A stretch of DNA of 64,000 nt from Amphiscolops sp. MND2022 (taxonomy: Eukaryota). The stretch's first letter is position 1, and every line of letters starts with the position of its first letter. The DNA lies in contig OZ076409.1 of assembly GCA_964187785.1 (NCBI GenBank), positions 40,488,001-40,552,000 on the forward strand, read 5' to 3'. Positions 8,701-60,395 of the stretch are shown here, one piece after another. Under the pieces are notes generated by a model. The model saw nothing but the letters and a program-made list of their open reading frames with translations. It had not been told where the DNA came from and did no database searches. The position numbers and the translations under genes are program-made.

Positions 8701-9718
8701 ATCCAGAAGTCTTTCACTGAGATGAACAATACATAGTTGAAATTTTTGTAGCTAATTTTGCATTTCTTATTTGATTGACTGTGAAAGAATTCTGTCCCTT
8801 GCAATAACGGATCAGTAGTATACAATTTGGGTCTGTAATCAGATTTATTATTACACTCTTGCATGTATATTTCCATTCTTCTTTTCCGAAAAAAGTTTAA
8901 GAATGAGCCCTTTAATATTGAATCCTACTTCAGAATGATACTCAATTGATCATGTAAAATGACATATCAGAGCAAATTAATTTACCACTTTCCTTTGTAG
9001 AGAAGAATCAATTCAAATATGCTTTCAATTATGCTCATTTTGTAGATGAAAAGATTTGCTGCTATTCAGGTCGGATGGCTTTCTTGGCTATAATAGTGCA
9101 CCAGATCACGTCTTCCAAGTTTTCTCTGTTTTATTTTTTTTTCAATTCTTGAAAACGTTCCATACTTGAATCAAACAAGTCGCAGCTTCTTGAGCTAGCA
9201 TCTATTTATTACGCAAAAGCCTGATTAATTCTAGGTAGCTACTATGAACTAAATATGTAATAACTAGTTCAATAAATGCAACTAATGGAAAATCAAAAAA
9301 TCCTAGACTTATTGAGTTTGGGTAGACTTTGACGTCTATAATTACAACTTCTAAACTTCTAGCAGCCAAATTGCATATACCAGACTTACCACCTTGAAAT
9401 TATGAAAAAAACAGGTGGCAGAAAAGTTTAAAGCTGAAAACATTTTTGAGCCGCGGTTGCCAGTAAATAATAAAAAAGCAGATTTTAGGAAAATTCTTCA
9501 ATTTTTTGCAACTAGATAGCAGCCCTACTGTAGTCATCGCTCTCCAACGTCAACAAAGTTGAAAAAATGTGTATCAATACACAGGTAAACAGATTGGATT
9601 AATTAGCAGCAACTTTGGCTTTTGGTACGCCATAGAAAGTTTGATGACAGACCAAACTTCCATATCAACTCATCAGCTGAACCAACAATCTCGCAATTTG
9701 TCTACGGAAAGATTCATA

Positions 9719-9929
9719 TGTTGTATTTCGAACTAGTTCTAAGAAAAGAATAAGGTTTCCTAAAATACTATATCTTTGTACTCGAGCGTATGCTATATAA
9801 CAATAACATAAAGTGATGTAGGAGTTTTACATCTAGTGTTTGTAAACAGTAGACAGGCCCTACCGGGTATGTCTATAACCGAAGTTCGGTACAGGTCAGT
9901 TCCTTGATTGACGGATGAACCGTATAACA
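9719..9929 (-). repeat. 3' LTR of element A (211 bp)
   Basis: Direct repeat of 15352-15552 with a 10-bp indel; adjacent PPT. Confidence 0.95.
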
Positions 9930-9952
9930 TTCCCCCTTCTCTCTCTGTGTTC

Positions 9953-10260
9953 CTCAGAGGCTGGATGATGTGCCGGGTCGCATCATGTTGTCCGACAGAA
10001 AGTCTTGAGGCTTTTGTATAGTTCCCGGTATCAGCTGGGATGTGCCTTTTGTTCGGTTCCAAATTTGACCTGTAACACAAACAAATTCGTCATACCCAAA
10101 AATTTCCTTTATAAGATATGCTACCGTATCTGTTCGGTCTATTAGTAATTCGGTTTGACCGTTTATGTTCACTTTCTGAATTCTCACCCTGTGGCATTTC
10201 TCCGTCTGTGTGAATTTGTATCACATCGTTTTCGGGATCTGTCCGTATCGGAATACACCG

Positions 10261-10306
<46 letters not shown>

Positions 10307-13300
10307 GTCGTATGTTTTCCCGGCTTCTTCCGGCGTTTCGTCTTCGTCATCGTCGTCGTCATCTTCGTCTTCCGTCTCAGTATCGGTTTTCTTTTTGTTT
10401 TGCACAATTCGCAATTTCCCGTTTAGGATGTCTCTCAAGATTCCATCCCACTTTCCGCATTTGCCGTCGAGTCCTCGTAGGCAATGTCGGTTCTTTGGTG
10501 TTATTTCGGCAGAAACTGTAGGTGCCGACTCTCTTCGGTATCTTTTCTCACTCTGAAAAAGTGGACCCGAAATAAATTTTCGATGTACTATTATCCCCGT
10601 ATCTGTTTTTACGGTGTTTTCAGTTCCGCTCATTGCGGTTTGAATTTTTGATTGAAATCTACCTTCTAAGGATTTTCGGTTGTGTCTTTTTTCTAAGAAT
10701 TTGAATGGATATCTAGCCGAGTTCTTTTTCGGTGATTTTGAGTCTGCAGCCAGTTGCGGTTCTTCGGTTTTTGTTCGAGCCATCACCACGTGGTTGGTGA
10801 TTTCCCCGTCAGCATCTCTTCCGACATATATCGAAATTTTTGGCCGATTTGGTGCTAAAATGGACAGTTCTGACCAATTTGACAGAAACGATTTCCCGTC
10901 TTTTACTATACTAGTTAGTTCTGTTCTCGGTGTTCAGTCCAAATGGTGTTTTCTTTAGTCCTGTGTGTATTGTGAACCGCATTACTCTTAATGCTCTGTT
11001 TACGCTTTCGGTTAAATTGTTACCGTCTTTTATTTTAGCTGGTTTGTGTTGCTCTTTCAACTGTTCCGTTTCCGGTATGCATTCGCGGTGGGCAATATTG
11101 CTTTTCTATTTTTCGAGATTTACAAAATTTTGTGTATAAGGTTGAAATAAATGCCCCCCCCCTTTATCGGATTTAATTTTTTCTGTAACACCGTATAAAT
11201 TAAACTGATATGATAGGAAACTTACAACTTCTTTTGTTTCCGGGGTTTTGCAAATTTTTGCTGTCGACCATTTGCTAAACCGATCTATTGCGATTAATAT
11301 TTGGGGTTCTTCGTTCAAGTTTTTATTATGAAATTTTTCGGTAAAAACTATTTGTAGTTCTTGTCCGGGTTCAGATAGTTTTTTTATTTTTCCGTACTGA
11401 TTTTTGGGAATTTAGTATTTATGGTTCTTACTTGTAGTTAAGCAAGTCGTGCAGTCTTTTACTTTTTGTTCGATGTCCTTCCGCAATTCCGGCCACCAGA
11501 AGATCTTTGCATCCGAAAACATTTTGGTTGTTCCGGAGTGACCGAAATGTAGAATTTCAATAAGTCTTCTTCGTAAGTCGATGGGAACGGCGATCTGGTC
11601 ATCTACGAAGACCAATCCCCACCGAATTGAAAGATTGTGGTATACCGGTCTAAAGCCTTCCGGTGTGGTGTCTCTTTCTTCTCTTCTCATGCTGGCTCGG
11701 ACTCGTGTCATTTCCGGATTAATTGCAGTTTTGGAGATAAGTGTTTTCAGATCAGCATGAGTTTAAAGTCCGCCTTCTTTATGGTCTCCTCCGTCATTTT
11801 CTTGTTTTCGGTGAGCCTTCCGACTATGTGGTTTTTTTGAATGTAGTAGGCTTCCTGCCTTCTGTGTGGTATTTTTAGAGGTCGACGATCGGCAAGTTGT
11901 CTCCCCGCAATATCACACTATCTTCTTCGGTATCTACCGAACCGTATTGAATTTTGTTCGGGCAGCAGTCCTCCTTCTTCCGGTGCTTCCGGCTCTTCTT
12001 CTTCTTCTTCGTCTTGTACTGGTCAGTATCCCCGCCAATTTGGTTTGTTCTTTGTGTGAGTTCGGCGTCTATCTCCGCAATTTCTTCTCGGCTTTTTTTA
12101 TTCGGTCTAGACGTTGTGAATATCATTCTCTGTGGTTGCGGGTCGTACCGTCTCCGCATTGTTCCGGGTCTAGTGAATATTTCTCTCCTTTACCAGTCTT
12201 TGCGTTTCGGGGCTTTTATTTTGTTTCCAGATGATTTCCATTATTTCCCGAGTTGCCCCACAGTGGTATAACATTTCTTGGTTCATTTTCTCGTCGGCGA
12301 TAATTTCTTCTTTTTTGTATTTGAACTTCTCTTTGTGGTGCTAATTTAAGACTGCCCGGATGTAGTGTTCTCGCTTTTGTTAGTTTTGTTCACGTGGCGT
12401 TTGTTCTGGAATGTTCTATTTTCGTGTGATTTGTCGTTCTTTTTCTCATTTCTGTTCTCGGATGGATTTTGTTTTGTCTCAGTGTCTTGTTTACTGTTTT
12501 CTGATTGGCTGTTGAACAGTGAACAATATTTTGCGTTCAATTTTGCGTGTTCGCTTAATACGTTAATCACATATTCTTCGTCGTATTTACCTTCTGTCGG
12601 TGCTCGTTCTGCCGGATTTCTACGTTCTACCGAGGTAGTCGATTTATTTTTAGTTTCTGCCGGCAATATGTTGAAATGCGATGTCGAAATGTGCTAGCCG
12701 ATTTATCCATCTAGTTATTCTTGCACCATATTGGTGGTTGCTTCGGCTTCGTTTTATTATTGGTTCTAGTGCTTAGTGGTCTGTATAAAAACGTTTATTT
12801 CTTCCCGTATAAAAATCGGTATTTTCCAATCTCCAGACTACTCCTAATAGTTCAAGTTCACCGATTGAATAGTTTTTTTCGGTATCGCTTAAATATCTGC
12901 TGCCGAATGCGATTGGTTTTATTTCTCCGTTGTCTTGTTTTTGCCAGAGTGTAATACCGATACCAGTTTTACTCGCATCTGTCGTTACCATGTTATGCTT
13001 GTCTTTTGCATAGTGTGATAGACATGGTTTCTCGGTCAGCATCTGTTTTTTTGTTTAAAATCTTTTTCTTAATCTTCTCCCCAAATCTATGGTTCATTCT
13101 TTTTCAACAGCTTTCTCAATCGGTCCGTCTTTTCCGATAGTTTCGGTAAGAATTTTGCAAGGTATTGTATTGCACCGCGAAATGATTTCAATTCTTTTGT
13201 ATTGTTCGGTGACTTCAACTTTTGTATCGCTTCGACTTTCTCTTCGTTCGGTTTTATTTCGTGTTCATCGATTCCATGTCCCAACCATTTTGTTTGTTTT

Positions 13301-15301
13301 AGGAAAAATTCGGATTTCCTTTCACTTGCTCGGTACTCGGTTTTTTCGAGTTTAGATAACACATCGAATAGTTTCTTCTCATGTTCCTGTTTACTTCCAC
13401 GTGTTACTACTTTGATGTCGTCTAGCCATGCCGGTGTGCTGTATTCCAGTGTTCGGTCAATTTTTTCTTGGAAGATTGTGGGGATGTCGGCAAGTCCGTA
13501 AAACCCTTTTTTAAATCTATAGTAGCCGCTCCGGTAATTGCAAATATGCATTGTCGGCTTGTTTCTTCAGATAATTTCATTTGTCCGTACGCGTAATCTA
13601 AATCGAGTTTTGAAATGAATAGGTGTAGTGTTCGGTCCCGTGTAATTTCCATCGATATCTGATTTAACATTTCTTCCATTATCGGCATGTGTGGTCTCCG
13701 TTTAATTCAACTGTCAATTAGTTTTCGGGAATCCAGTGCTTTTTTCACTGATTTGTCATTCTTTACCGTTATTACTACCGGTGATACGAAGCCGTCTTCA
13801 TCCACATTATTTACTTTGTCTAAGTGTCCGGCTTTTTTCAAGTTCTCGTCCTACATTTTTTTGGTAGGTGTAGCGGGATCGGTCTGGCTTTTTGTTTTAC
13901 CGGGTAGTTTCCGGGTTTCAATTGTATATTTATTTCAGTATCTTTTTTTGTCGGGTTCTTCTCGAACAGGTCCCTGAACTTGTTGATTAATTTCTCTTTT
14001 TCCGATTGGTTGAATTCAGCCAAATGTAATCTTCCGATTGTCAGTTTGAATTTTTTCATCCAGTCGAAGCCTAATAGCGGTGTTATGTCCGTTCTTTCGG
14101 TGATTAGTGTTTCCATCTTTCGTTTGTTATTTTCGTATTCCATGTCTACCGGTATCTTCCCCCGGAGTTTTACTACACTTTTATTTACATCTTGATATCG
14201 GTTTGTTACTTTCTGAATTTCGGTCTTCTTCATTATTTGTTCATCTAATGGCATTTTGGTTACTGGAGATCCGGTATCGATGATGAATTATTTTGGTGTT
14301 CCGTTGATTTTTATTTTTGCTGTGTAGTGTTTCTGTAGTGTTCCACGATGTTCTTTATTTCTTCTATGTGGTATATGCTCTCAACAGATTCGCTCCCTGA
14401 TTCGTTCGGCCCTGTTTCTTCCTCTTCGGTACGTTTTCTCACTGTTCGGTGATTCTTTGTTCTTTGTTTGCATGCCCGTGCGTAGTGTCCTTTCTTTCCG
14501 CAGTTATTGCAGTTTGAGTCTTGTGCTGCACACTTATGTTTTGGGCTCCAATTTGGTGCATTGCAGAATCTGCATGGTCGGTTCCTTGTTATTTTTGTTT
14601 TCGGTCTGGTTCCGAATTTGTCCATTCTCTGTTTTGGTACTGGTTTTGCTTTGATTATTTGTCTTTCTTTCGTTGTTTTTAAGGCTTCTGGTATTGTGTT
14701 TTTCTTGTTTTTCTTTTCGTAGGTTTTTGTTTGATCATTTCGATAGTTTTCTTCATCTCTAATGTTTTTTTTTCATTAGTTTGTCCCGTAACTTCTTGTC
14801 GGTGATGGCGGTCATGTATTTGGAAATTAATAGTTCTTCGGCAGAGATGGTACCAAAATTACATTCTTTTTCGATCTCGATTAATCGTCTCCAGAATTCG
14901 GGTGTTTCATTTTCCGATTGTTTTGCCCAAAACAAATCTCCTCTGTTGTTATATTTATATGTCGTTTTGGGACGTAGTGTTCGGTATATAACCGGATTAG
15001 ATCTTTATTTTTGATGCTGTCCGGTTCCGTTTTGTACTCGGCCCGGGTTATCTGGTATAGCGCTTCCGGTCCCACTCCCCAGATAAAGTCTTCTCGAATG
15101 TTTGCTTCTTTTTCGGCGGTCCATCCGGTTTCTGTGATATCTTCTCCTTTTACTAGCGGTGTGATATCGATCTTGTGTTCCCAGTTAGTAAACTGCCGGA
15201 ACCTCTCCAGCCATTGTCTCGGAGTAAATATTGGATTCCCGTGGAGCCAATATTTTCGATGCCTTAGCTTCTAGGTTCGGTACAATATTCTTTTCTGCCA
15301 T
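9953..15301 (-). pseudogene. gag-pol: gag-pol of element A, broken by many frameshifts and stops
   Basis: Zn knuckles CRFCNAPNWSPKHKC and CNNCGKKGHYARAC (14311-14625 ORF); protease DTGS at ~14267-14278; RT SKLDLDYAYGQ and WLDD; RNase H TTDAS and NYSIGELELL; integrase HFGHSG..CTTC, AIDRFSKW, KSDKG. Confidence 0.93.
10264..10301. repeat. (CT)19 microsatellite in the 3' end of element A pol
   Basis: Perfect dinucleotide run; produces the poly-ER and poly-SL ORF artefacts. Confidence 0.95.
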
Positions 15302-15351
15302 GGTTGCGGTTAAAATTTTCGGTTTGTTTCAAAATCTTGCTTACTGCGTCA

Positions 15352-15552
15352 TGTTGTTTTTCGAACTAGTTCTAAGAAAAGAATAAGGTTTTCTGAAATA
15401 CTATATCTTTGTACTCAAGCGTATGCTAGATAACAATAACATAAAGTGATGTAGGAATTTTACATTTAGTGTTTGTAAACAGTAGACAGGTATGTCTATA
15501 ACCGAAGTTCGGTAGAGGTCAGTTTCTCGATTGACGGATGAACTGTATAACA
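15352..15552 (-). repeat. 5' LTR of element A (201 bp)
   Basis: Direct repeat of 9719-9929, flanked internally by a mutated tRNA-Ser-like PBS and externally by TSD TCATA. Confidence 0.95.
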
Positions 15553-18438: not shown

Positions 18439-21400
18439 TCATTCTTCTGGCTGGTCCGTAGGCAAATCTGGCATTGAAGTAGTAGCCGCTGGCTCTAAAT
18501 TTGTGACAGGGTCCGCTACCATGATGGGAGACGGATTGGGGTCGTCGATTGTTAGGAGGTTGTTGAGTTCTGACTCGATGACGGCAGGCTCCATCTGGGA
18601 TATGCCCGTGTCGGGTTCGTCTTGGGCAGGCGTGGCGGCACCGGACAGGGTAAAATTAAAATTATCATCAGTCATACGCTCATCAGGCGGCATGTCGGTG
18701 GATAAATTCTCCTGATGACCTTCTGTTTGGGTATCAGCTTCATCGGGCAGATTCCTTTCTGGGGGTAGCGAGTGAGAACTTCCAGAGGCAGTTGCACTTA
18801 TTTCGCCAGTCGTATTACTTACACTTCCCTGGGGGAGTTCAGGTATGCCGTCGGCGAGCTCTTGATGCCCATATTGACCGAATAGGCTCTTGAAGGTCTG
18901 GATTCCTCGAACATAGTCTTCGCTCACAAACTGTCTTCGCTCCCTTTGCCTGCTGTGCAATTCGAGGAATATTTCCATTGCGACTCGCGGGTTGTTAGGG
19001 ACCTCTGCACCAATTGGCAGCGTCTTTCTGGCTAGTTCCCGCCCAATCGAGGGCACTGTGATTTTCAAGCGTTGAAAGACTTGATGAACTGCAAAGTTTA
19101 CTAGTTCTGGGTGTGGCCAACATGTGGTTGCGTCCAGTATGCGTGCAGTATGGACACAGGGCTCTGCTCGATTACAGTACATTCTTGACGTCTCACATAC
19201 TTACGGGTAGTGGGGCCCACTGGGCGCTTCACTCCGTTTTCTCCCACCCAATCTTTGCACGATCGTAGCTAAGATTCGCAGGACTACTGGCACATCCCAT
19301 TCTGCAAAGGGATCTACCGCACCCGTGTGCGGATCTATGGTGTTGTGCAACCATGCCACAGGGTAGAATTCTATGGACATGGTGAGGGCGCACCGCGCAC
19401 GTGCCCGGATTATTGCCGCGAAATTGTGTTCCACCTGTTTCCGGTCCTTAATCACCGTATAAGCCATGGGGGGTCTTTATGTTTTTCACAGCAGTTTGGT
19501 AAGCAGGACCCCGCTAGGATCCATTAGTGTTTACAAAGTGCAAGATGGAGGAAAGCGGGGCATGCGCAGCCACTCTTAAGGTTTGTGTGGGGTACCTTAG
19601 AGCCATCACGGCGCCGAAGATTGCCCAAATTATGGGGGAGATTAGGGGGATGATGTCTTCAGTCTCTACTAGCATAAGAGTAGCCACTTGGGAGGGGAAC
19701 AAAAAACCAGGGAGCTGCGTGGGCTCCCTGTTGGCTGCAGGGTTTTAATCCAGAGGATGCATGATTCCAGCAGTGTTAACCCACGTGGAATAGATCCACA
19801 GCAGGAGGTTCTCAATGTTGAGTTCTAGCTGTGTATTCAATTGTCGAGGACCCGCAGGGTCCAAAGCATTCAAGATCGCGTACAGCCAGTTGTTCTGATT
19901 CCGTGCGAACACCAGGAAGCTAAAGCGGCACACACTTCCCTTGTCGAACAAGTTTTTGTAGGAGTCCATTGGGCCCTCGGTATACTGTCTGCAGGCCAAC
20001 GGCCATTAGGCACGCCAGGATCTCACTGATTGTGGATCTCTCCATGGCCTCAACGTACAAGCGTAGTCGCTGTTCGTCCAAATTATATTCCGGCTGCACA
20101 AAGTTGGGAAACTAGAATGGAGAGATATTATATAGAAGCACTGGGAAGGATATACCTAGCCGCTCTACGACTTGACTCAGTGGCTCAATTAGCAGCTGAT
20201 GCCCCGTCTGATGCGTCAATTTTGGCACCTTTTCGTTCTGACGAGTCAGGTCTTGAGCTAGCACCATTGATAGTGCCAGCGTGGGAAACCCGATGTAAGC
20301 CTGTAGGGCTTTTGACACTTCTGCTAAGAATGCAGGTAGGATGCTTGGCATGGGCGCCAGGTGGTCGCGCTAATCGTCAGATTTGGGACACTAGGTAAAA
20401 ACTCAAAGTCCTTGCGTACCAGCTGCCTCTAGTACCAGGTGTAGGAATTGTTGTATGGGTCTCGGTAGAAACATGTAGCCTGGGGGAGACATGAACACAG
20501 TTCCGGTGGTGGATTCTTTGCTCTTCCTTGTCCTAGTGATGTGCGACATCGCCTCCACGTAGGCTGTGACTTCATCCGTGACGAATCCTTCAGTGAATCT
20601 GGGGAGTTCCAGTTCGAAGAATTTCAGTGTCCCCCGCAGAGCGAGGTGATCAAGTACATTTGAATAGACTAGTATGGGAGGAAGAGGTATTGTTTCTGCT
20701 GCCGCTGGCGCGAAGATTTTGTCAGTAACCTCTGCCATCTCGCTGAGCGAGGTGCAGGGCATATTCATCACTCCGACGTCCATCAAAATATTGTTGGTGT
20801 TATATAACGACTTCATGGTTGAGTCGACAAAGAATGCTATTCTCGTCTTCTGCAATAAGTTTTTCCCCATGGGTAGTAAAGTAATGGGGTCTCTCGCATA
20901 GTTTTTGGTTTTCAGACGTTCTTCGTCATACCGGCCTGGTCGCTGGCGGTTTAAACAGTTTGTAGGGTAGGTTGCAGAGGCTGTAGATACATGGAGTTAT
21001 CCCTCTCCAACTCTCTTCATAAGCGGTTGAAGCATGGGGAGCATCCATCGGTCGTGAATGTTGGTTTCTTCACCGGACGGGTGTAGATTACTCCTATGGT
21101 TGCTTTTTCGATCGTTTTCAGAGTGGCGGGGTCTTCTTACTGGTTGCAACTTCGAATTTCTGTCGGAAGGGATCTGCTTCTTCAGTTGTGGCGGGAACCT
21201 CACGCTGGAGACGTACTGCGTCTTTCGCCGTTATATCTAACTGTTGTTTCTCAGCGGAAGTGAGACTTTCCCGCGTCATTCTTTGTCTTCTGGCTGCCGG
21301 CTGTGTGGGTGAGGGAGTTGGGACTTTTCTATTGTTACTCGAGCTCGACTGTTCTCGACCCGGCCTCTTGCCCGTTTACTCGCATTGACTTTGTCTCGCA

Positions 21401-22166
21401 AGTCTATGGGGGCGTTGGCAGCTTTGTTCTCTGCTTTTTGTTGTTGGCGCTGGCGTTCTTGTAGTTGCGGGTCCTTTTGGAAGCCTTCAAGACGGCTGGG
21501 CTCGCTCCTTGAGGTTTCGTCGCATGTTTCTCGCCTTGTAAGGTATTATTAGCGATTGCATTCACCTGCAACCCTCCCCCCTGGAAGGTGGAAGGAGGCA
21601 TAAAACTGGTGGACGACTGAGTAAGTAATCTGATGCCCTCGAATGCCAAAGGCATGGGGGCGTAAGAATTTGTGGCGGTATTGTTGGCAGGGTGCAGCTA
21701 AACTGGGTTAGCTCTAATGGGGGAAGGGAGCCAATGCTGGGAGGTTGCTTGGTTGCGGGGGAATTCGAAGTGATAGTTCTTGGTCCCTGGGAGGCCTAGT
21801 AGGCTCTCCAAATACTAGATGGGCCCTTGGGTCAATGAGGTCATGGGTCAAGTCATACTCATGCCAAGTGCCATCACGGAAGCTGGCGAAGCGCTCTAGT
21901 GACCCGATACTGCTAGTGATGGTAATGAGAACGTCTGGATGAGTTGCTTGTAACTGTATTTGGGCAATGATCATGGCAAAGCCAGCGATCATCGTAGGGG
22001 TAGCCCCATTTTGGAGAGTTTGTTTAACCAGGGCGAGCTGGTCAACTCGACCACCGATTTCGCTTACTGGCGGGATAGTGCTGGCAGATGTTTGTTCAGG
22101 AGTTGGGTGCCGAGAACTTAGCTGGTGTGATGGTGCTGGCATTCGGTTGCGTGATGAAGAGTCCAT
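18439..22166 (-). pseudogene. Extra 3' ORF of element B (~1200 codons, disrupted): low-complexity N-terminus, SGNH/GDSL-hydrolase-like domain (~20330-20870), further unknown domain(s) and acidic tail
   Basis: Chain of same-strand ORF fragments (21714-22166, 21404-21655, 20997-21203, 20403-20870, 19745-19999, 19514-19702, 19201-19467, 18439-19182); motifs IAFFVDST, MPCTSLSEM, ILVYSNVLDHL, TVFMSPPG; no obvious env-like TM anchor. Confidence 0.6.
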
Positions 22167-22569: not shown

Positions 22570-23005
22570 TGGAGACATATATTCTGCCATGGATAATTAA
22601 TTCTAGGTTCTGATCTATGAAGTGATCACGTAACGTAGCGTACCAAGCCGGTAACAAATTGATCGACCGTTCGGGATCATTAATGGGTAAGTGGATTCGC
22701 GTGATTCAAATCTGGTGAAGCTGGTGCGTCAAATGGGTGAGACATGCGTGTAAGATTTCGTGTAGCAGTGGGTGTTTATTGGAAGCTCTGGTGCACAAAA
22801 GGAACATTTCGTTGCCCCAGGGTGCAATTGGTTAGTTTACCAGGCGCACTGCCGTGCCCACCGCAGGCCTTAACTGGAATATGTTTTCCTATCCATATTC
22901 TCAAATAACGCAGCGAGCGGTTGCCGCGTAAGACATTAGATCTGCAGGACAACATAACACTACCGTTCGAGGGGCCTGCAATAAGTCCGTTGCAGCGTAG
23001 GTTAT
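22570..23005 (-). pseudogene. Macro domain (TARG1/OARD1/Poa1p-like) at the 3' end of element B pol
   Basis: Read through four in-frame stops in one frame: ITYAATDLLQAPRTVVLCCPADLMSYAATARCVI*EYG*ENIFQLRPAVGTAVRL...MFLLCTRASNKHPLLHEILHACLTHLTHQLHQI*ITRIHLP...WYATLRDHFIDQNLELIIH, colinear with TARG1 ITYVKGDLF...HCISED...IYYLITK...LQKSLE...LSMP...IKITVY. Confidence 0.72.
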
Positions 23006-24779
23006 CCATGGCAGGTTATTTGGCACGGTTTTCAGTTGCGTTATTAGCCATTTGCCCGTGGCATTGCTATGATAGTCGATTGGTTGAGACGCCGAATGAT
23101 CGAAGATTGCTCTGCGATCTTGCCATACCGTGCGACGCAAGGGTCTATCGCCCATGTTGGTGCAAGACCAATCATGCACTACGGAGAGTGCTTCGAGCAC
23201 GGTTATCGGTTTTTCGAGGGTGTAAGTCTGCTGGTCCAGGACATGTATCTCGGCTTGTCGGCAAAAAATGATTGCTATTAGTTGAAGCCAATGTTGACTC
23301 AAGAACTTTCCGCGGTAGAAGTCTGCTAGATAGAAGCAGAGGGTGTTTTCAGCCTCCACCACAGTACGTACGCTTTCCAGACTTATTAGCAACGTAATGG
23401 GGGAATAGGGAACACGGGCGTTGTTTGGTCCAGGAAGGTGACCAATAGCCAACAACCTTGTGTAGGCTGGTATATGTCACCCATATGCGGAGGGGAAGCA
23501 ACATGGTATCTTTCCCATAGCTCATGTGAGGTTATGCAGCGAATCATATCGGTCTTTTCTCGCTCAGCGTTCACTTTGCCGAATTTTATAGATGGTGGCA
23601 AAAGGGAGTATGACGGCGGATAGTGTGAATTCTAGACCGCGTCGGTCATGCTGTGTCCATTCTCTGAAACGGTGATTAGGGCAGTCGGAGATGGAAGTGT
23701 CGTGCATTGTTTTTAGCGTGACTTCTAGTGGTGGTACCACTCCTAGTTCTACGCTTGTGTACGTTTTCTCTAAGTGACGATAATGTGCTTCACCGTTGGA
23801 GAAGGCTCAAGTTCTTGTCGTTGGGACCGGAATTCCATGCTACGGGTGTTCTGGTGCGCGTGCTATCAGGAGTTCACGGGTGGGGATGGCGGCTCGACGG
23901 GCCAATCGATGGTCCGGTGGTTCGCTTGCGGTTAGCTGCACGCAACTACAATTGTGGGAACCACAGGTTCCACACCGATATCGCGGTGCCCTATTTACTC
24001 TTAGCTGTTAGCGTGGAGCTTGTGAGGAGGTACTTTCTTCGATTCCAAGTCTATCCGGTGACAGGTTTGTTGAGATTTCTGGTATGGTCATGGATCTGCC
24101 TTGGGTTCGGGGAGGAGCTCTAGTGCTGACCCTGGTTCGTGGGCTTCTTCTATGCCGGGCAGTTAGGCCTCTGGAAGATGCCTTAGTCTTGCTCGAGGAT
24201 GTTGTGTGCTCCCTTCTACAAATGGGTGGCCTGCCTCGAGGTCTTCCCCTTCTGTTCGAGGTGATTGGCTGTGCAGGAAGTTGGTTTGGACTCGGATCTT
24301 GAGTTTCGCACTCCCTCTAGGTATTCTGTGGCTGCTCTATTGCAATTAAGGGGTCCCAGTCTGTGAATAGAACAAAAGGAAATTGCTCAGAGTATCAGTG
24401 AGGGATGGATTGGACAAGAGTGGGGCAGATGTTCCAGAGGGTGATGGCATTAGGTTTTTTGTTGGTTTCTCTGGATGAATCTCTTCTTGGTCGGAGAACA
24501 ATGGCTCTAGGCCATCCAATTCACGGAACATCGCCTGCGGGGATGGTTCCACAATTGGTGGTTCAATTGCTTCTTGTTGTAACTCCCAGTCTGGGGGGTA
24601 TCCAAAGTGACTAAATCGCCGTCGAGGTATCCCACGGTCAAGAGCTGCCTGCGTGCGGGATTGGATGGTTCGCGGTGGAACCGGTCTGGTTGGTTCTGAC
24701 GCCTCTGGTAGCTGCTCTGGTAAGAAAAATCTCGGCAAATATCCGAAGTTATCTCTTCATGACTCTCTTGTACGTATGG

Positions 24780-25892
24780 GTCAGCAATGATGGCTACATT
24801 CTGGTCTAGCCCAAAGAGCTGATGCGTTGCCCAATTCCAAGGGGCAGGTACACGCTTCTTCAATCTCTCGAGGTGGAGCTTTTGACCCGTGTTTAGCACA
24901 TAGAGGCGTCCATCTTGTAGCACATCGGTTATCTTGTGTGGGCGACGCCATGCACGAATCAGTTTGCTGGTGCAGCCTTTGGGTATAATGTGACAAAACA
25001 CCCAGACTGCATCGCCAATGGCATGTGTGCTTTAGCTTTGAGGTGGCGGTCAAACTTCAGTTTCTGCCTCAATTGCGCTTGGTGAGTATTTCTGCGAATT
25101 AGTTCGTGATTTTCCTGTTGTCTTGCCAATAGGTGTTCTGCAAACTCTTCCTTGGAATCAAAACCGCGCGCTGCGAACTCAGGGTAGATGAATGATAAAG
25201 GAATCGATTTCTCTGCCCCATGTTGGAGCATGAAGGATGAAAACCCTGTAGTTGCTTGCCTGGTTTAGTTGTATGCGCCTAGGACTCCATCAAAGTGCTG
25301 ATCCCAATCTTGCATCCTGCGCGACGTATAGACTCGGAGTACGGTTATCAACGTTCTGTTTTGTCTCTCCACGAGTCCCTTGCCTCTGGTGTGAGCAGTG
25401 GTAGACGTCACTTTAGTCACCTGCGACGCTTTCATGAGTTCCTGAGCTATTTCCGCGGTGAAGTTCGTTGCATTATCGGATTGCATTCGGGCTGGAGTGC
25501 CGTGTCTGGCAAACAATTTCTTTAGGATGATTTTCGCTGTCGTCTGCGCATCGTGTTCGTCATGGGCGCAGGGGATGGCTTCCGCAAACTTCGTCAAATG
25601 GTCTATAATGACCAAGAGTCCTGTGTTGCTTGATTCAGTCTTGCAGAGTTTCAGGTGGTTGAACTGCACCAGGTCGTTGAAGTTGCTACTGTTTATGCTT
25701 TGCAGTGGATAAGAGGGGTTTCCGGCGGGCTGCTTTGTTTGTTGACATGTTAAGCAGTGCTTAATATGATTCACCACATCTCGTTTGATGCCTGGCAAGG
25801 TGTGTCGCTCCTGTATCCCTGCTAACACTTTCCCCACGCCCTGATGTCCCAACTGTGCTCTGTACAGGATTTCGTGTTGATATAGTTGCGGC
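24780..25892 (-). pseudogene. pol: Integrase of element B (Zn-binding, DDE core, C-terminal SH3/GPY-like part)
   Basis: GHQGVGK..HIKHCLTCQ; IIDHLTKFAEA; MQSDNATNF; GLVERQNRTL; AWRRPHKITDVL..KLHLERLK; frameshifted. Confidence 0.92.
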
Positions 25893-26182
25893 ATGAAGTT
25901 TGTTTTTAGCGTATGGCCACCCAGTTGGAAACTCATGTTTTCATATATGCCAATGGTGTTAATTGTCTTGCTGGTGGCGGCGTACAATTATATGTCGTAT
26001 GGCATTAAACTCAGGGCATGGGCAGACGCGATCTTCTGGTAAGCGTTGAGTGAGAGGATGGAGACACCGGAGCTAGTGTCTATCATCCCGTACAAAGAAA
26101 TCGGTTCTTGAAGGGTGCTGCCAAAGGCAACCACCAAGGAGGCCCTTTCGTCTATCCGAGCTTCCCCTTGCACGTCTTGCAC
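25893..26182 (-). pseudogene. pol: Aspartic protease of element B, joined directly to integrase
   Basis: YGMIDTSSGVSILS (DTG-like) continuing as YAATSKTINTIG..LGGHTLKTNF straight into the integrase Zn-binding region. Confidence 0.8.
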
Positions 26183-26399
26183 ACCAATTGTTTTAACATC
26201 GCAACTCCTGGCGGCCTAGGTACAACCCTTGTGGGAAGTATCCTTCTAGGACTATTATTGCGTCAAATTTCATGTCGACACCGTCTACGTTGATAGCGAC
26301 GGGACCGGAGAAATCGTTTTAACCTTATGAACGGATGCCGGTTTGGTCTCGTCTTCCCTAGTGAAATGTGGGAGTGGCCGAGGGGCAATGGCATACTTG

Positions 26400-29234
26400 G
26401 TGTTTCTACACAATTCCTCCTTCCGTTGGGTTAGCGTCAGCGCAGGGCGCAGTTTTTGCTCGCCGCCGCCAGTCAAAAGTAGCAAGTGTATGGAAATGAG
26501 GGTTTCGGTGCAGTTGAGAGCGGGTGCTTTGATTGGCCTCCGCTACCGAAATCACTCGAACCTGATCGTCTTGTCCCACGCCATCGAATCGGTTGGTCTG
26601 TGGGGCATACCACGCTGCTCTAATTTGCTCTTCCTGTCTTATGTTTTCCGGAGCTGTACATTCTGATGCCGAATGCTCAGAGCGGCCACATTTGATGCAA
26701 AAGGCCACGGTTCCGTGCACTGGTAGCGATGCCGGGAAAACCTCGTGATTTATTCCATGCGGCAGTGACGGGCAAGTCCATCCTCCGGATGGGTTCGTGT
26801 GACAGAAATTTACTTGATGTTGCAGGGGTTTTCGAGCGCGATCTTTTGGCGGGCAATCGATTACGAAGTGCAGTGGGTCGCCGCAGTTGAAACATGCTCT
26901 CTGAGGTTGCTGTCGATATGCTGCTGGTTGCTGAGGGGGTGCTTGTTGTAGGTTTCGCGCTGGCGGGGGAGCTGCCGGGTATTGGTTCGGTACTTGGTTG
27001 GGCTGTTGGGGCGCAGGAGGAACCATTGGATAACTGTCGAAACGAGAGGAGCCACGCATGCGCAGATACTGCTGGACGGTGAAGCGAAAAGCCTCCACTG
27101 TGTGTGGTGCTTCCACATATTGTTCTGGCGCGTACATGAGCGCAAGATTGCGTTTCAGCTCGAAATTGCGCACTCCTTCTATAAATCGTTGCATGATTTC
27201 GTATCGCCGAACTGATACTTCCTCGTTGGGGAAGCCTTGGCTGCGCAAGTTTTCGAGGGCATCAAAATACTGCATTTAGTCCTCTTCACTATTCTGGCTG
27301 CGAGTTCGAATTTGTTGTCGAAAATGGATCATACTAGACACGATTCCGAATCAGCGCGCTAAGAGCGCAAAGGCCTTTTCGTCAGTGTCTCTTTCGGCCT
27401 CGGATTTGTTAGTGATGTAATCTCTTGCCCCGTGCTCTAAATGTCCAAGCTTTATCGTGGGGGGTAGCTTTGGCGTGCGCTTTTTCCAGATGGCGTTTCA
27501 TCAACATCATCCATCTATCGGCATTAGCATCTTTTGTTCCTCAGTATTTAGTCGGTTTATTCTTGGACTCCTTGACTGCTAGTAGCGTTTCTAAGCCCCT
27601 TGACATGGTTGTTGATATTGCTTCTGCTATTGCTTTTCGCTGTCTGGTCCTCGGTGTCGGGAGGTACCAACTGTGGTGGCTTGACTTGCTCGACGCTAGG
27701 CTGCGCAATTTTCCGGTAGGTGGCTTGTGCGGGCGGCGAAGGTGCACTGGTGGACGGCATATTGGCTTGATTAAGTGGTAGGGTTGCCACTGGCGCCACC
27801 TGTGTATGTGCTACCGCTGTTTGCGACACTATAGCTTTCACCCCCAGTGTCAAGTCTTTCATTGTTGTCATCAGGTCCACCATGCGTATGTTGGAATCAG
27901 TGTCTCGACGCTGCATCATGTCCGACATTAATTTCATGCTTTAGTGGGCTTGGCGGTCTTTTTCTTCTCATTACCGCAGACGTTTCGGCCAACCGAGAGT
28001 CAGTCAATTTCTGTCGTTGTTTGATTAGGTCATTCAGGGAGGCCATCATGGCCATGATGGATGCTTCGAATCGTCCTTGATGTTGTCGCCCTTCTACTTG
28101 TATTTCCAGGAGCCCTTTTCTCATTTCATCTTTGTCTCTCATGACAACGTCAGCTCGCATTACATGCTCGCAATTTTCTCGCGCCAGTCGTTAGTATACT
28201 TGTGAAAGTTGAGCCAAGCTGCTCCTGAAGTCCTCCCTAGCCGCTTGCGTTTTTTCGAACCTTGGTGACAATTGAATCTGGAACGGTCTCAGCGATAGCT
28301 TTAGAGCTTGGTGTATAGGTTAATCGCTCTGCATTGCTAGGATTGAAACTGGGGCCCGTCGTTGGCGGCGTCCTGAATGTATACCGCAACTGGTTTTTTT
28401 CCACCGGAGTTGGTGGGTTTCCGACCGGCTTGCTCAACGCTTTGGTCGGCGCTCCTGGTTGCATGTACCCACTCAAAGAAGGAGTTTCGTTCTTCGTTAT
28501 TGATCAATGCATGCGAACCCTGGGGGTCCCTGTAGATTTCTGGTGTTTGGGGGTCGCTATTGGAGTTGCGACGTCGCACCCTTGTGTTACTGCTTCTTTG
28601 CTGGTGCTTGGTTCGCATGTCGGCCTCTTTTTGGAGTTTGGCCAGCCATCCGAACTGTAGTCAGTGACTTCCAGAGGAGGCCACGCATTACTTTGCATTG
28701 TAATTTCAGCACCATCCGCTGGACTGGTACTATCTGGGAAGCTCGCGATGAATTGGGCTGGCTTCCTGCAGCTACCATCTCCATGTTTTGTTCTGAACTG
28801 GGAATATAGTCAGACATGAGTTCTGAAAACATGTTCATGGTCATGGTGCTCATTGCATCTTCAGCGCTTGCATTCACTTCGCCCAACGTTTTGATCTCGC
28901 TAGCGAATGGATTGGTTTTGTAGGGTCCGTTGGACTCCCAGGACGCTTCGCTCGAGGGATTCATGGATTCCCTTTCTGTCCAGTCCATTTTGGTTGCGAG
29001 TTTGTCACTAACGATATTTCTGGATGATAATGTTTAGCCTGCTCCCTTTTCCTCGCGAAATGGGGAGTGGGAATGGAAGGTGGAGTGGATTGGATCTGGG
29101 ATGTAGGCTGTTTGAGGAAGTTTTATCATCTGGGAGTACGGCGTAGTAATAGGGTTATACGTTTTCGATGATGTATCTCTCGTGGGTTGCATCGAACTAT
29201 AAGAGGGCTTCGTTAGCACTGGGGTGGATGCCAC
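26400..29234 (-). pseudogene. gag: gag of element B with long N-terminal extension and two CCHC zinc knuckles
   Basis: YFDALENLRSQGFP..QRFIEGVRN capsid-like segment; CFNCGDPLHFVIDC and CIKCGRSEHSASEC; upstream same-strand ORF fragments 27557-29234. Confidence 0.85.
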
Positions 29235-29539: not shown

Positions 29540-31941
29540 TGGACCTTAGGGTGAGTATGGACAAAGGCATTGAGTTTTAAACCGATTTACTGACTGCAGG
29601 CTACAAGGTAGGCGAATTAACGGTGCTCTAACACTGTAGGCGACACTGGTTTACTGTTTTGCTTCCTATTTAGACGCTCTGCGTTTGAAGTCTAAACCTT
29701 GAAGGTGTCAATAAAAGCACTGCAATACCCTTTGGGTACATGGGGCACTAATTCAGTGCCTTCATAACAAACAGTTTACACTTGGATGACTTTGGGGGTG
29801 GTTTGGAAGCAAATCTTTATTTTCGGTTTTTCGCATTCATGTCTCGTAGACATGTTTCTCAGAGACCCGAGATCTTAGGGTCGGTTTGTCACTAATCAAA
29901 TTGATTCGTTCGTCAGGACGTGCGAAACATGCCTGGTATGCTGAAGAGGTCGTTTGGGTCCTCACTGGCACGTATACTGACAAAACTGTACGATTTGTCC
30001 TACAAAATTGCAAAATCAACATTTTTTCGTCAACAGGCAACTCCGGGGAAGCAGAAAAAAATATAGCGCTGCTAGCGACCTGAAAATTTCACACCGCTTC
30101 TTAGACGAGCTATATCGTGGAAATTAACCTCCGATTCCGTCAAAATTGACTCTGTGGTTGTTATGGTCACCTAATAATGTCCACTGAAAAATTGACAATG
30201 TCGCGAAATTCACAAAAGTTAGTCAAACTTGCTTTCTAGGCGTCCTAGCTACCTGAAATTTTGTCTGCGAGCGTAAATTATGCCCACGTAACAGAAAAAC
30301 TGGGCAGCGAGGGGCCTGGGTCAATACCTGGCGATATTTGCACAATTCCACTGGCTGCTCAAATAGCACAAATCGTCGGGATCTAGTGCCGTACGTAATG
30401 AAACGCAAGAATTTTAGTGCTGAGATACCTGCAAGGTATTGCACTATGCTCAACTAAAATTCGATTTTTTTTGCAGTTTTGTGCATTTTTTGAGCAAAAC
30501 TGCGGCTAAGATTTTTCCACGGGTACTGACAGTAGCGCCATCAGAATCACGCTGTTAGCGTAACTTTTTTGCGCTCTACACGATGGTGCAACCTGTTTTT
30601 GGCTTTTCTTGATAGGAGAGATTTCGACTCAATGAAAAAACGTGGTTGCTGAATTCCCAAAATGTCACAAAAATAGCACGTTTTTGGCTATTCCTCAGCA
30701 ACCACTGCTCGGAATCACTCGCAGTTTTCTGCGTTAGCAATGTAACACTCTATGTTAACAGAAAGTAGGCAAGCGAAACCTTGTAGGCTTCAAACAAGGT
30801 ATCTCAAAAACTTTTCAAATTGCACTTTTCACACTACCGGAATTGTGCTGAAAATACGTATTTTCGCAAAGAACTTGCTGTTTTTCCTGTTCGCCGAAGT
30901 TCCTTATGGTTTTATCAGTGGTGTAAGAATGTGTAATAACTTTGTTCAGGGGACTGGGGTATTTTCAGTAGTTGGTTTAGTTTCAAAAACACACAGGCTT
31001 ATGAGGGTCCTCTACTCTATTCGTAACAAAAGAAAAGGGATTGATAAAGTTTCAATTTTTGTAGGGGAATGCTAAATCCGTCTTGGTAGTAGTGTTTCGT
31101 ACTGCCAAGCTCGACAAAAAACTTTTTGGGCTGCTCAAAAGGCTTGGGGAGTGATGCCCAAGGCTTCGCCCCGCCAAATTTGGTCAAAATGACCAAATTC
31201 GACGATTTTCCAATAAAAATTGCTAAACTTTTCGTGTTTTTTCCACATCTAGCCCAACAAGGTTTTGTTCCTTACCTAGTAGGTCTGTTGGAACGTTTTT
31301 CTAGTATTCTCACTGGCCGTTTTCAGTTCTATAAAGTTATGACTGTCAAAATTGGAAGTATTGAAATTTGAGCTATTTATGGTGTTATTTTCGAGGTTTT
31401 TGCGCTCAACTTTTTAAATAACTTGTCTGAACACCCACTGGGTATTTTTTCTAGTTAGTTCAGGTGGGAATAGGCCTGGGAATATGCTTTTTGGTCTAGA
31501 AATCGAGAAAATTGGGGATGTAACCCGATTGACATGGGGGTACTGCAATCACGGGGGTTTTGGATGTGTAGTCGCGTAGGACGTCACGTCTTCGTGTCAG
31601 CTAGCGTGAACCTTCACTGTACGTCCTCTCCGTCCCCATACATTGCAAATTTGCTGAAATGAGGCTAAAAACTCTTTGAAATCAGTTCCGGGTAGGCCGG
31701 ATTAACTGTTTCAACAGGTATAGTCAAAATACAAAGTGTATACTGTCTGAAACCGTCTATTTCTGGCTCTAGACCTCGGAAACATGCAGAAAACGCTAGA
31801 AAAATACTAGTACAAAGCCCAAAGGGCTAGAAAAAGATTATAAAAACAATCTAGGACCCTCTGAAAAGCGTCTCCTAGATCCGGACGTAACAGTGCCGGA
31901 AAGCAGGAGTTGCTCCTAGTTAAACGTAAAAATGAAAAACA
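29540..31941 (-). other. ~2.4-kb non-coding 5' leader of element B, homologous to the interior of element D
   Basis: Colinear reverse-complement similarity to 45713-48190 (e.g. TTTTAGTTGAGCATAGTGCAATACCT, CCCTAAGATCTCGGGTCTCTGA); no long ORF. Confidence 0.85.
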
Positions 31942-35197: not shown

Positions 35198-35854
35198 AGA
35201 GTTTCCATCTGAGTTTACCCAAATAGTTCGAAATTTCTTTCATAGTTTTTTTTGCTCTATTTACTGAATCCTCGAAACTATTTAGGATCGAGGGGTCCCT
35301 TCTTTAAAATGTTGTCGTAATACGGTTCCGGTGTATAAATTGGCTCTCTTCACACGTTTTGGCACAATGCAAAGTTTTTCAAATAATTTCAAAGCAATTC
35401 CCCATTGTTGATCTTTTTGGTGTTTTCCGTTAGATAAAAGCGGTTTCTGAGGACAAAAGTGTATTGTCGGCACTTTTATATTTGTGAGATTTTGCCTAAG
35501 TTTGGGGCTTTACAACCTTAAGCCGAGGACTGTCTCTATCGATTTGTACTCCAAAAAGTCATGAATAGAAGTTTTGAATTTTCCAAACGAACTGCAAAAA
35601 AACTCTGAATACAAGACGCATGACACGTGTTTTTGCGGGCTCTCAAGCTTGGGAAGATATTTGGCCAGACGCAGTTTCAAATTGAAATGACCTCAAGAAA
35701 AATTGCGCAATGCCCGAAGAACCCGACGGTCTTTAGTCTGCGTTTTTCGTAGAAAACGCAGACTATAGCACTGGCTTTTTTAAGACCGACGAAGTTACAG
35801 AGTTTATAAGCTGAGCTGTATGAAGAAACTTGAGCAGCGTATTTAAACGTTGAT

Positions 35855-36250
35855 CGAATATAACGTTTTCAAAGTTCGCATATAACGGTTTCAAAGTTCG
35901 CATCTAACGTTTACAAAGTTCGGATATAACGTTTTCAAAATTCGGATATAACGTTTTCAAAGTTCGAATTAAGCGTTTGTAAAAGTCGGATATAACGACT
36001 AAAGTTCGGATATAAAGCATTGAGAGTTAGGATATAACGTTTTCAAAATTGGGATGTAACGTTTTTAAAGTTCGGATATAAGGTTTTAAAAGTTCGGATA
36101 TAACGTTTGCAAAATTCGAATATAACGTTTTCAAGGTTCGGAAATAATGTTTTGAAGTTCGGATATCACGTTTTGGAAGTTCGGATATACCGTTTTCAGA
36201 GTTGAAATATAACGTTTTAAAAGATCGGATACAACGTTTCAAAGTTCATA
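35855..36250. repeat. 22-bp minisatellite, consensus AAGTTCGGATATAACGTTTTCA, ~18 diverged units
   Basis: Head-to-tail units without spacers. Confidence 0.92.
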
Positions 36251-36264
36251 TGTAATTTCAGCTT

Positions 36265-36738: not shown

Positions 36739-37211
36739 TTCTACATGTTCATGAACAAATTTTAGGAACAACTAATCACTTTCACAAGGGAAAGCATTTC
36801 CTATTGTGTCGTAACTCTGGTGCGACTATACAGAGCATTCATTTTGGTATCAACCAGAGTGACATTGATTGAAACCTCTTTTATGCCAATATTGGCGTTC
36901 TTCACTGTCTAATTCGACTTCGAGGTTCCTTTCTAGTCCCATTGACTTCATTTCCATTTTTGTGTTCAAACTTTCTCTGAGTCATTCCATGTTAACTTGA
37001 TTCTGCGGAAAGATTTTCTCATCAATTGCGGGATCTATTGCTTGCATGATTTGAGTATCTAGTATTGCCTACTTTTCCTGATTATAATGTCCTTTATTTT
37101 TCTGATGAACTTCAACTAGATAGTAACGTTCTGAAATTTATTTCACGTTCTATCAATTGATTAAACAACAAAACTTAAACGGTTTTCTACCTTGTTTGAT
37201 AGCAACAATTG

Positions 37212-52265: not shown

Positions 52266-52680
52266 TGTCTCAGGCGGCCGCCTGCGATGGTAACTGGTAC
52301 ACGGTCGCATATGGTTTTTGCAGGGCCCTACCCGGAACAATTCCACTAGATTGAGGAAATACAAGCAGTTGGGCCAAGAAGTCCAAGGCAGAAATAATTA
52401 AAACTTTTACGATAAAACTGTTTTGTATTACTGGTTTGTGTTATTATAGCATGTAATTGCATACAGTTAGTAGCTATATTACTTGTTAGTTATATTTTAA
52501 AACATGTAAATATAATAAGATGTGCTGTGAATTGGACACCAAGGCGTACAGGTAGAGGAAACGCGATTAGAGTGTTTCCTCTCCTGTCGCTGTGGACAAG
52601 CAGTCCAAATTAAATTCAACCAATCACATTTCAGCATTCAACTGAGCACTCTAATACAGCGTTATTATTATTAGTGGACA
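52266..52680 (+). repeat. Candidate 5' LTR of element E (duplicate at 57673-58066)
   Basis: TGTC...GACA ends followed after 3 nt by TGG (TGGCCACGCGCCG), ~580 bp upstream of gag; no 3' LTR in the window to confirm. Confidence 0.45.
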
Positions 52681-53260
52681 TTATGGCCACGCGCCGTTCA
52701 TTCTCAAATACTGATATACTTGCTAAGGCGATGGAAAACTGAGTACAATTTGACTGGTGCTTTCATGATTGTAGTAATAGACCTAATTTGAAGAATAGAG
52801 CTGCGTACAATTACATTCTTACAATAAAAGGTGCTATATCTGATGCCCCCTTCTTGGCTCAAAGGTCGTATTTGGCCAAAGTCTAAATTCACCTGTCTAA
52901 ATTATGTGCGAGTGTGATCGAAACATGTAATTATTACATGAATGGTACATGCAGTGTTGCCTTCATTGTCATTAAAGTGCAGTTGTCCCTTAAGGACGAA
53001 CGAGGCGGTGTAACGCCTTTGATGTGGCCAATAGGTCATTACGTCATGTAACCCGCAAATAGGTGATGCTATTTTTAGATTAGTATTTATCTATTTTTAG
53101 AACATGACTGTTAATTTTTCGATAGTCATGCAATCTATCATATATACCCGGGACTCTTGGACCGGGGACACAATTTGATAATATATGCAGCCTATCAATT
53201 GGTTTTATTCTGTTTGCAAGCCTAAAGATAATTAATTCTTACCTCTTGCAATTGTCTCTT

Positions 53261-60366: not shown

Positions 60367-60395
60367 TTTTGCCACGACTCTAAATACATGACTAT

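What the first reader, a model, noticed from the sequence alone, without database searches (positions are those of the whole stretch)
22570..23690. TARG1/Poa1p-like macro domain, probably tandem, with altered catalytic positions
Seen: 23005-22570 translates through stops, in one frame, into a sequence colinear with TARG1/OARD1. The positions matching TARG1 ITK and GLD appear to read CTR and RSI. Upstream fragments (ALITVSENG..., CWLLVT..., LLISLESVR...HWLQLIAIIFCRQAEIHVLD; ~23200-23690) look like a second, more diverged copy. Inference: a possibly non-catalytic ADP-ribose reader or decoy fused to integrase, at the position where chromoviruses carry a targeting chromodomain; it could guide integration.
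Basis: partly seen in the sequence, partly recalled or inferred. Interest (0 to 1): 0.7.

Follow-up and report, generated by a model that had tools for sequence, protein, structure and literature searches.

The report
Tandem pseudo-macrodomains on a retrotransposon integrase
A family of jumping genes carries, at the end of its integrase-containing protein, two copies of a fold that normally binds and removes ADP-ribose; both copies appear to have the binding pocket plugged, so they probably do another job, most likely gripping DNA, RNA or chromatin.

Summary
The stretch is the 3' end of pol of a decayed Ty3/gypsy element. Relatives fold into two TARG1/DarG-type macro domains (A: window 23598-23231; B: 23014-22583; Foldseek top hit TARG1, E 5e-6 and 3e-7), which Pfam misses. 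Integrase, A and B share one chain in 19 of 31 integrase-bearing relatives, including a 3178-aa Gag-Pol and two families with 56-59% integrase identity to it. The ADP-ribose reader/decoy idea is unlikely. Besides K84 to R (83/90) and no D125 (0/71), domain B has Asp at G121 (69/72) and Glu at G123 (60/72). G123E is a published ADP-ribose-binding-dead TARG1 mutant (PMC5928194). Domain A has Tyr/Phe there and a shortened loop 1. The pair lies about 410 residues behind the integrase C-terminal domain, after an AT-hook-like motif and a cysteine cluster. Best reading: an old, conserved pseudo-macrodomain pair binding nucleic acid or chromatin without ADP-ribose; targeting is inferred, not shown.

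The parts
26196..28949 (-). gag remnants with a CCHC zinc knuckle (about 26850-26900), broken by stops and frame changes
   Evidence: tblastn of P0213 residues 8-1042; Pfam zf-CCHC E 3.5e-6
25892..26611 (-). protease-region remnant; at about 25893 it is joined directly to integrase, RT and RNase H being absent from this copy
   Evidence: P0213 914-1143 and 2073-2364 map side by side; RT/RH lie at P0213 1460-1818
25025..25894 (-). integrase zinc finger and catalytic core
   Evidence: Pfam PF17921 E 1.4e-10, PF00665 E 1.7e-7; 86% identity to P0213
24825..25022 (-). integrase C-terminal (GPY/F-type) domain; label recalled, not from a profile hit
   Evidence: 82% identity to P0213 2365-2430
24352..24824 (-). 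acidic, proline-rich linker (net charge -24 in P0213 2431-2624)
24224..24253 (-). AT-hook-like Arg/Gly/Pro motif at the start of a basic stretch (net +12 in P0213); AT-hook label is by eye and recalled, no Pfam hit
   Evidence: window translation; composition peak at P0213 2629; Pfam silent
23927..24004 (-). small four-cysteine cluster, possible zinc site (inferred)
   Evidence: 77% identity to P0213 2706-2733; 67-89% kept in 6 of 9 compared relatives, 32-33% in 2, not covered in 1
23600..23773 (-). conserved pre-macro segment (strand-helix-strand in the model, no fold match of its own tested)
   Evidence: 62% identity to P0035 25-82; model residues 1-65
23231..23598 (-). macro domain A, TARG1-type, shortened loop 1, pocket residues replaced; frame change at about 23437-23410
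   Evidence: tblastn; fold of relative P0155; hhalign to B
23015..23230 (-). A-B linker of about 70 residues, begins with a helix
22583..23014 (-). macro domain B, TARG1-type, last domain of Pol; four internal stops in this copy; window residues R at K84, D at G121, E at G123, S at D125, A at G43
21569..21582 (-). 11-nt purine run followed after one base by TG: candidate polypurine tract and 3' LTR start; no second LTR copy in the window
   Evidence: read directly; self-BLAST finds no repeat of it

Best explanation
An ancestor of this Ty3/gypsy lineage captured a TARG1/DarG-type macro domain at the end of Pol, remodelled its pocket (Asp at G121, Arg at L124 in both copies) and duplicated it once, before today's families split. 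SHOWN: fold, tandem layout, fusion to integrase, family-wide residue replacements, conservation above most linkers. INFERRED (about 0.75): neither copy binds or hydrolyses ADP-ribose in the TARG1 way, because loop 2 carries Glu (B) or Tyr/Phe (A) where TARG1 needs Gly123, and K84/D125 are gone. INFERRED (about 0.5 given that): the pair is a scaffold that binds nucleic acid or a chromatin protein on another surface, as TARG1 itself binds RNA without its pocket and SARS-CoV SUD binds G-quadruplexes. With the AT-hook-like motif and the cysteine cluster, on a long flexible linker, it would tether the integrase complex to target DNA or chromatin. The window's copy is a dead, RT/RH-deleted relic and makes no such protein.
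For: Fold: B; A. Fusion: 19 of 31 integrase-bearing proteins hold IN, A and B in order, with B ending 8-70 residues from the C-terminus; P0213 is one 3178-aa chain from zinc knuckle to macro B. Age and constraint: P0277 and P0298 keep the layout at 56-59% integrase identity, B 40-41%, A 29% over part. Against P0007, A 66%, B 70%, cysteine cluster 71%, but basic stretch 44% and second linker 34%. A and B form separate clades (100/99) with similar internal order. Pocket tallies on 109 (B) and 79 (A) domains below 90% identity, n per column as filled. TARG1 G123E/G43E/I44E lose ADP-ribose binding yet G123E and G43E still bind RNA (PMC5928194). SUD's two macro folds fail to bind ADP-ribose and bind G-quadruplexes (PMC2674928 abstract). 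DarG has a proposed DNA-binding surface beside the pocket (PMC7050489).
Against: No binding or targeting data exist. Residue equivalences rest on sequence bridges (P0200, P0174) and profile alignments, not on a residue-level superposition. The models are of relatives, and the B model is middling (block pLDDT 46-85; whole-model mean 41.9). The macro domains are near neutral in net charge (+1, -1), which does not favour plain DNA binding. An Asp at the probable adenine-binding position of B is kept (68/75; equivalence to TARG1 D20 recalled, not shown). SCO6735 is active without K84/D125 (PMC9411070). The acidic linker is as conserved as the macro domains at short range (67% against P0007), so the contrast is not uniform. 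Tallies include decayed copies, probably from few host genomes, and are not independent. The 31 proteins were retrieved through macro matches or their clusters, so 19/31 is not a family-wide rate. The tail may be cut off integrase by the protease.
Confidence: 0.42

Rival explanations
1. The pocket is dead, but the tail is cleaved from integrase and acts apart from integration: an RNA-binding accessory in particle assembly or export, or a counter to host silencing.
For: A linker of about 410 residues separates it from integrase. TARG1 binds RNA without its pocket (PMC5928194). SUD is thought to act on RNA (PMC2674928 abstract).
Against: An AT-hook-like motif and a cysteine cluster sit in the same tail (by eye). 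The fusion is kept in all three deep families with long chains. No cleavage site was identified or tested.
Confidence: 0.25
2. One reading: a non-catalytic reader or decoy of ADP-ribose that steers integration to PARylated chromatin or DNA breaks, or soaks up host ADP-ribose signals.
For: ALC1-like class includes readers (PMC7050489). Probable adenine-binding Asp kept in B (68/75; equivalence recalled). Arg at K84 is a conservative change (83/90).
Against: Glu at G123 (60/72), Asp at G121 (69/72) and Ala at G43 (72/88) in B; Tyr/Phe at G123 (66/73) and a short loop 1 in A. G123E abolishes binding and recruitment to damage in TARG1.
Confidence: 0.15
3. An atypical hydrolase: the conserved Asp121, Arg124 and Arg84 form a rebuilt site for another substrate, such as ADP-ribosylated DNA or RNA ends or a smaller nucleotide, clearing blocks on cDNA ends.
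For: These residues are near invariant (D 69/72, R 68/71, R 83/90 in B; D 64/74, R 62/73 in A). SCO6735 works without K84/D125. TARG1 and DarG act on DNA ADP-ribose (PMC8501950). Six of 72 B-like domains keep G123.
Against: Any ADP-ribose substrate needs the diphosphate groove that Glu123 blocks in TARG1. An Asp-x-x-Arg pair can be purely structural. Five of the six G123-keepers form a separate branch, show no upstream macro A, lie on contigs of 1-4 kb and are not shown to be retroelement genes.
Confidence: 0.12
4. Neutral passenger: a captured host fragment that is decaying.
For: No function shown; the window's own copy is broken.
Against: Open frame over 3178 residues; same layout and motif residues in families 56-59% alike in integrase; both copies still model as macro folds.
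Confidence: 0.04

Closest known systems
Human TARG1/OARD1/C6orf130 (PDB 4J5Q, 4J5S, 2LGR), ALC1-like macrodomain class
   Same: Top fold match of both domains; sequence link through P0200 and P0174; same minimal topology
   Different: K84 to R (B) or S/A (A), no D125, G121 to D, G123 to E (B) or Y/F (A), G43 to A; doubled; fused to a retroelement Pol; 12-18% structural identity
Bacterial DarG macrodomain and SCO6735
   Same: DarG Z 13.7 (B) and 11.6 (A); SCO6735 also lacks the K/D dyad
   Different: DarG keeps the catalytic lysine and both are active hydrolases; no toxin partner here
SARS-CoV SUD (Mac2-Mac3 of nsp3): works-like analogue
   Same: Two macro folds in tandem inside a viral polyprotein that do not bind ADP-ribose (PMC2674928 abstract)
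   Different: Only a distant fold match (Z about 7); RNA virus; SUD's ligand is known, this one's is not
Chromovirus integrase chromodomain (MAGGY, Tf1, plant chromoviruses)
   Same: Extra host-like domain at the C-terminus of Ty3/gypsy Pol, thought to target insertion (PMC3350952 passages; bioRxiv 2021.11.30.470311 passages)
   Different: No chromodomain here; different fold, doubled, about 410 residues downstream; targeting not shown
Macro-domain ORFs of fish epsilon-like endogenous retroviruses (Basta et al. 2009, seen only as cited in PMC4977317)
   Same: Macro domain carried by an LTR retroelement
   Different: Described as additional ORFs in Retroviridae, not as a tandem at the end of Ty3/gypsy Pol; class and activity not checked

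Membership tests
Ty3/gypsy LTR retrotransposon | Domain order Gag-PR-RT-RH-IN | tested here: met
   P0213: zf-CCHC 792, protease 1079, RT 1460, RH 1686, IN 2074; the window maps on it but lacks RT/RH
Ty3/gypsy LTR retrotransposon | Paired LTRs, PBS, PPT | tested here: inconclusive
   PPT-like run and TG at 21582-21569; no paired LTR in the window; no DNA of relatives obtained
Macro domain superfamily, ALC1-like (TARG1/DarG/Poa1p) class | Macro fold closest to TARG1/DarG | tested here: met
   (models of relatives P0035, P0155)
Macro domain superfamily, ALC1-like (TARG1/DarG/Poa1p) class | Pfam PF01661 hit at cut-off | tested here: not met
   none for the window or close relatives; best E 0.3 for P0174. 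CDD cd02901 is not available here
TARG1-type ADP-ribose hydrolase | Catalytic Lys84 | tested here: not met
   B: R 83, K 2 of 90; A: S 33, A 24 of 63
TARG1-type ADP-ribose hydrolase | Catalytic Asp125 | tested here: not met
   D in 0 of 71 (B) and 0 of 72 (A)
ADP-ribose-binding macrodomain (reader) | Glycines of the diphosphate and ribose loops (TARG1 G43, G121, G123) | tested here: not met
   B: G43 kept 2/88, G121 1/72, G123 6/72; A: G121 1/74, G123 1/73; equivalence by sequence bridge
ADP-ribose-binding macrodomain (reader) | Measured ADP-ribose binding | not testable with these tools
   needs a bench assay
Chromovirus | Chromodomain at the integrase C-terminus | tested here: not met
   no Chromo hit in 9 proteins scanned, 5 of them reaching macro B with integrase
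Chromovirus | RT phylogeny inside the chromovirus clade | not tested
   no reference set was available

The most novel reading that the evidence does not exclude
A new class of integrase-targeting module: a captured ADP-ribose hydrolase turned into a tandem pseudo-macrodomain whose conserved Asp121/Arg124 loop reads a chromatin or nucleic-acid feature other than ADP-ribose and so picks insertion sites, an independent invention parallel to the chromovirus chromodomain.
Probability: 0.25. Interest if true: 0.8.

Novelty: new variant of a known kind. Interest (0 to 1): 0.55.

Why it matters
Accessory domains at the integrase end are the main known way LTR retrotransposons choose where to insert. 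This one escapes Pfam, has been kept across deeply split families, and in 60 of 72 domains carries naturally the substitution that biochemists use to kill ADP-ribose binding in TARG1. It gives a small, expressible test case for what macro folds do without ADP-ribose, and possibly a new targeting module. Novelty is capped because macro domains in retroelements are reported (fish ERVs). I also recall, untested, database annotations of Poa1p-like macro domains inside insect gypsy Pol proteins.

Tried and rejected
Direct searches of the window domain read with X: Pfam 0 families, PDB sequences nothing under E 0.38; family profile against PDB sequences 0. Searches used a wrong frame for the short query and say nothing about it. 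PHROGs: phrog_335 'phosphatase' in 2 of 20 members, E 0.0066, a lead only. ESM atlas: unnamed phage clusters 0.91, Macro 0.89, a lead only. No host genome is held. No DNA of relatives was found in metagenome or viral contigs, so no dN/dS, LTR or insertion-site analysis. No sequencing run was listed. The host was not identified. Literature: ten searches listed no paper on macro domains at the end of Ty3/gypsy Pol; subscription journals and Repbase are not covered and no supplements were read. Earlier notes of this scan: the eight listed concern phage or bacterial macro genes and do not bear on this; some searches were empty. No complex prediction was run, since a ligand cannot be scored.

Full report
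Setting. The window is AT-rich and full of repeats and retroelement remnants; no host genome is held and the host was not identified. The finding lies in a minus-strand Ty3/gypsy element. The 3178-aa natural protein P0213 (zinc knuckle, protease, RT, RNase H, integrase) maps along window 28949-22595. Its residues 1144-2072, which hold RT and RNase H, have no counterpart: protease region and integrase meet at about 25893. This copy is a dead relic, so function has to be read from relatives.

Observation. Window 23014-22583 reads in one frame through four stops. Read with X, it hits nothing in Pfam or PDB sequences but finds 50 relatives at 49-76% identity among 194 candidates. A profile of 20 relatives found 245 representatives at E up to 0.001, of which 150 were listed. 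Two of them bridge to human TARG1: P0200 (E 4e-9) and P0174 (E 6e-5); the window aligns to P0200 at E 1e-15 without gaps in loop 1, the K84 strand and loop 2. The model of P0035 is usable only for residues of about 281-414. It matches TARG1 first (Foldseek E 2.8e-7) and DarG and TARG1 at Z 13.7 and 13.5. The upstream segment, modelled on P0155 with 56 sequences (pLDDT 81), again matches TARG1 first (E 5.2e-6; Z 12.2, rmsd 2.8, 115 aligned). The two domains align to each other (hhalign E 2.6e-5, probability 75%; cross-HMM best 21.5 bits against 10.6 for reversed controls). The tandem is therefore real.

Fusion and age. Of 31 held proteins with an integrase core, 19 carry A and B in the same chain, B being the last domain. 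The other 12 end 22-706 residues after the core, short of the 888-1031 needed. These proteins were retrieved through macro matches or their clusters, so the ratio shows that fusion exists, not how common it is. P0277 and P0298 share only 56-59% integrase identity with P0213 and keep the layout (B 40-41%, A 29% over part). In a 32-row tree, A and B are separate clades (100/99) with a similar order of families inside, which fits one duplication before the families split; the root is a midpoint only. Between integrase and A lie about 410 residues: an acidic linker, an AT-hook-like motif in a basic stretch (label by eye), a four-cysteine cluster and a conserved 64-residue segment. Against P0007, A, B and the cysteine cluster keep 66-71% identity and the basic stretch and second linker 44% and 34%, but the acidic linker also keeps 67%. 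The constraint is thus clear at depth and uneven at short range.

The pocket. TARG1 numbering was carried over through the P0200 alignment and to A through hhalign. Tallies cover 109 B and 79 A domains left after dropping 14 of 200 and 13 of 162 poor or short alignments and collapsing at 90% identity. B: K84 is R in 83 of 90 (K in 2); D125 is D in 0 of 71; G121 is D in 69 of 72; G123 is E in 60 of 72 (G in 6); L124 is R in 68 of 71; G43 is A in 72 of 88. A: K84 is S or A in 57 of 63; G121 is D in 64 of 74; G123 is Y or F in 66 of 73; L124 is R in 62 of 73; D125 is D in 0 of 72; loop 1 is shortened. The window's B has R, D, E, R, S and A at positions 84, 121, 123, 124, 125 and 43. K84 and D125 are TARG1's catalytic pair (PMC9411070 and PMC7050489, passages). 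Their loss alone proves little, since SCO6735 is active without them. [quoted passage not shown] The family has fixed Glu at that place. Against this, an Asp at the probable adenine position of B is kept (68 of 75; equivalence recalled), and I could not superpose residues on the TARG1-ligand structure. Five of the six domains that keep G123 (P0200, P0174, P0263, P0264, P0267) form their own branch, show no upstream A and lie on contigs of 1-4 kb. They already have Asp121 and Arg84 and may resemble the state before duplication, but their context is unknown.

Mechanism. Most likely (0.42) both domains are pseudo-macrodomains that bind nucleic acid or a chromatin protein without ADP-ribose and, with the AT-hook-like motif and the cysteine cluster, tether integrase through a long linker. 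Fold, fusion and residue changes are shown; pocket closure is inferred from a TARG1 mutant; tethering is inferred from position and from analogy to SUD (PMC2674928, abstract) and to chromodomains (PMC3350952 and bioRxiv 2021.11.30.470311, passages). The near-neutral charge of both domains does not support plain DNA binding. Rivals: a cleaved RNA-side accessory (0.25), an ADP-ribose reader or decoy (0.15), a rebuilt hydrolase (0.12), a neutral passenger (0.04).

Comparison and novelty. The domains belong to the ALC1-like macro class by fold, fail the TARG1 hydrolase and reader residue tests, and the element has no chromodomain. Macro domains are reported as extra ORFs of fish endogenous retroviruses (PMC4977317, passage citing Basta 2009, which I did not see), and recurrent loss of macro activity is known in hosts and viruses (PMC10221186, passages). 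A review of retrotransposon accessory domains has no macro domain (PMC6338049, first of four parts and a term search); nor has the Troyka paper (PMC12440569, term search). PMC8501950 and PMC4695847 were seen as passages only. Ten searches listed no description of a tandem, pocket-altered macro pair at the end of gypsy Pol; supplements were not read. I recall, untested, database annotations of Poa1p-like domains in insect gypsy Pol proteins, which would make capture itself known. Verdict: real, a new variant of a known kind, interest 0.55.

Noticed in passing
window 18439-21560 (- strand): About 3 kb of broken reading frames (GC about 0.49-0.50, like the element) right after the PPT-like run, unique in the window. 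The 197-aa piece 20403-20996 has no Pfam or PDB hit; the ESM atlas gives tyrosine-recombinase-related DUF3504/NDC10_II clusters at 0.95 with only 159-161 shared features; by eye it looked SGNH-like. It could be a coding 3' LTR, an extra ORF or a separate element.
   Followed up: partly
window 21570-22160 (- strand): A small reading frame of about 150-200 codons between the pol stop and the PPT-like run, at the env/ORF3 position; no Pfam hit.
   Followed up: partly
P0213 residues about 1820-2070 (absent from the window): About 250 unannotated residues between RNase H and integrase, also present and less conserved in P0277.
   Followed up: no
P0155 model residues 1-65; window 23600-23773: Conserved pre-macro segment that models with pLDDT 61-79 but was not covered by the fold matches.
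   Followed up: no
window 9700-15500, 37200-43100, 52500-64000: Several other decayed Ty3/gypsy-type elements of unrelated families, some as near-identical tandem blocks 5.4-5.7 kb apart; none matches the macro pair.
   Followed up: no
window 35788-36256 and 1799-1917: Tandem arrays with 22-nt and 30-nt periods.
   Followed up: no
window 29672-30876 and 46783-48061: An inverted dispersed repeat (about 76% identity) sits where the 5' LTR of the element would be expected.
   Followed up: no
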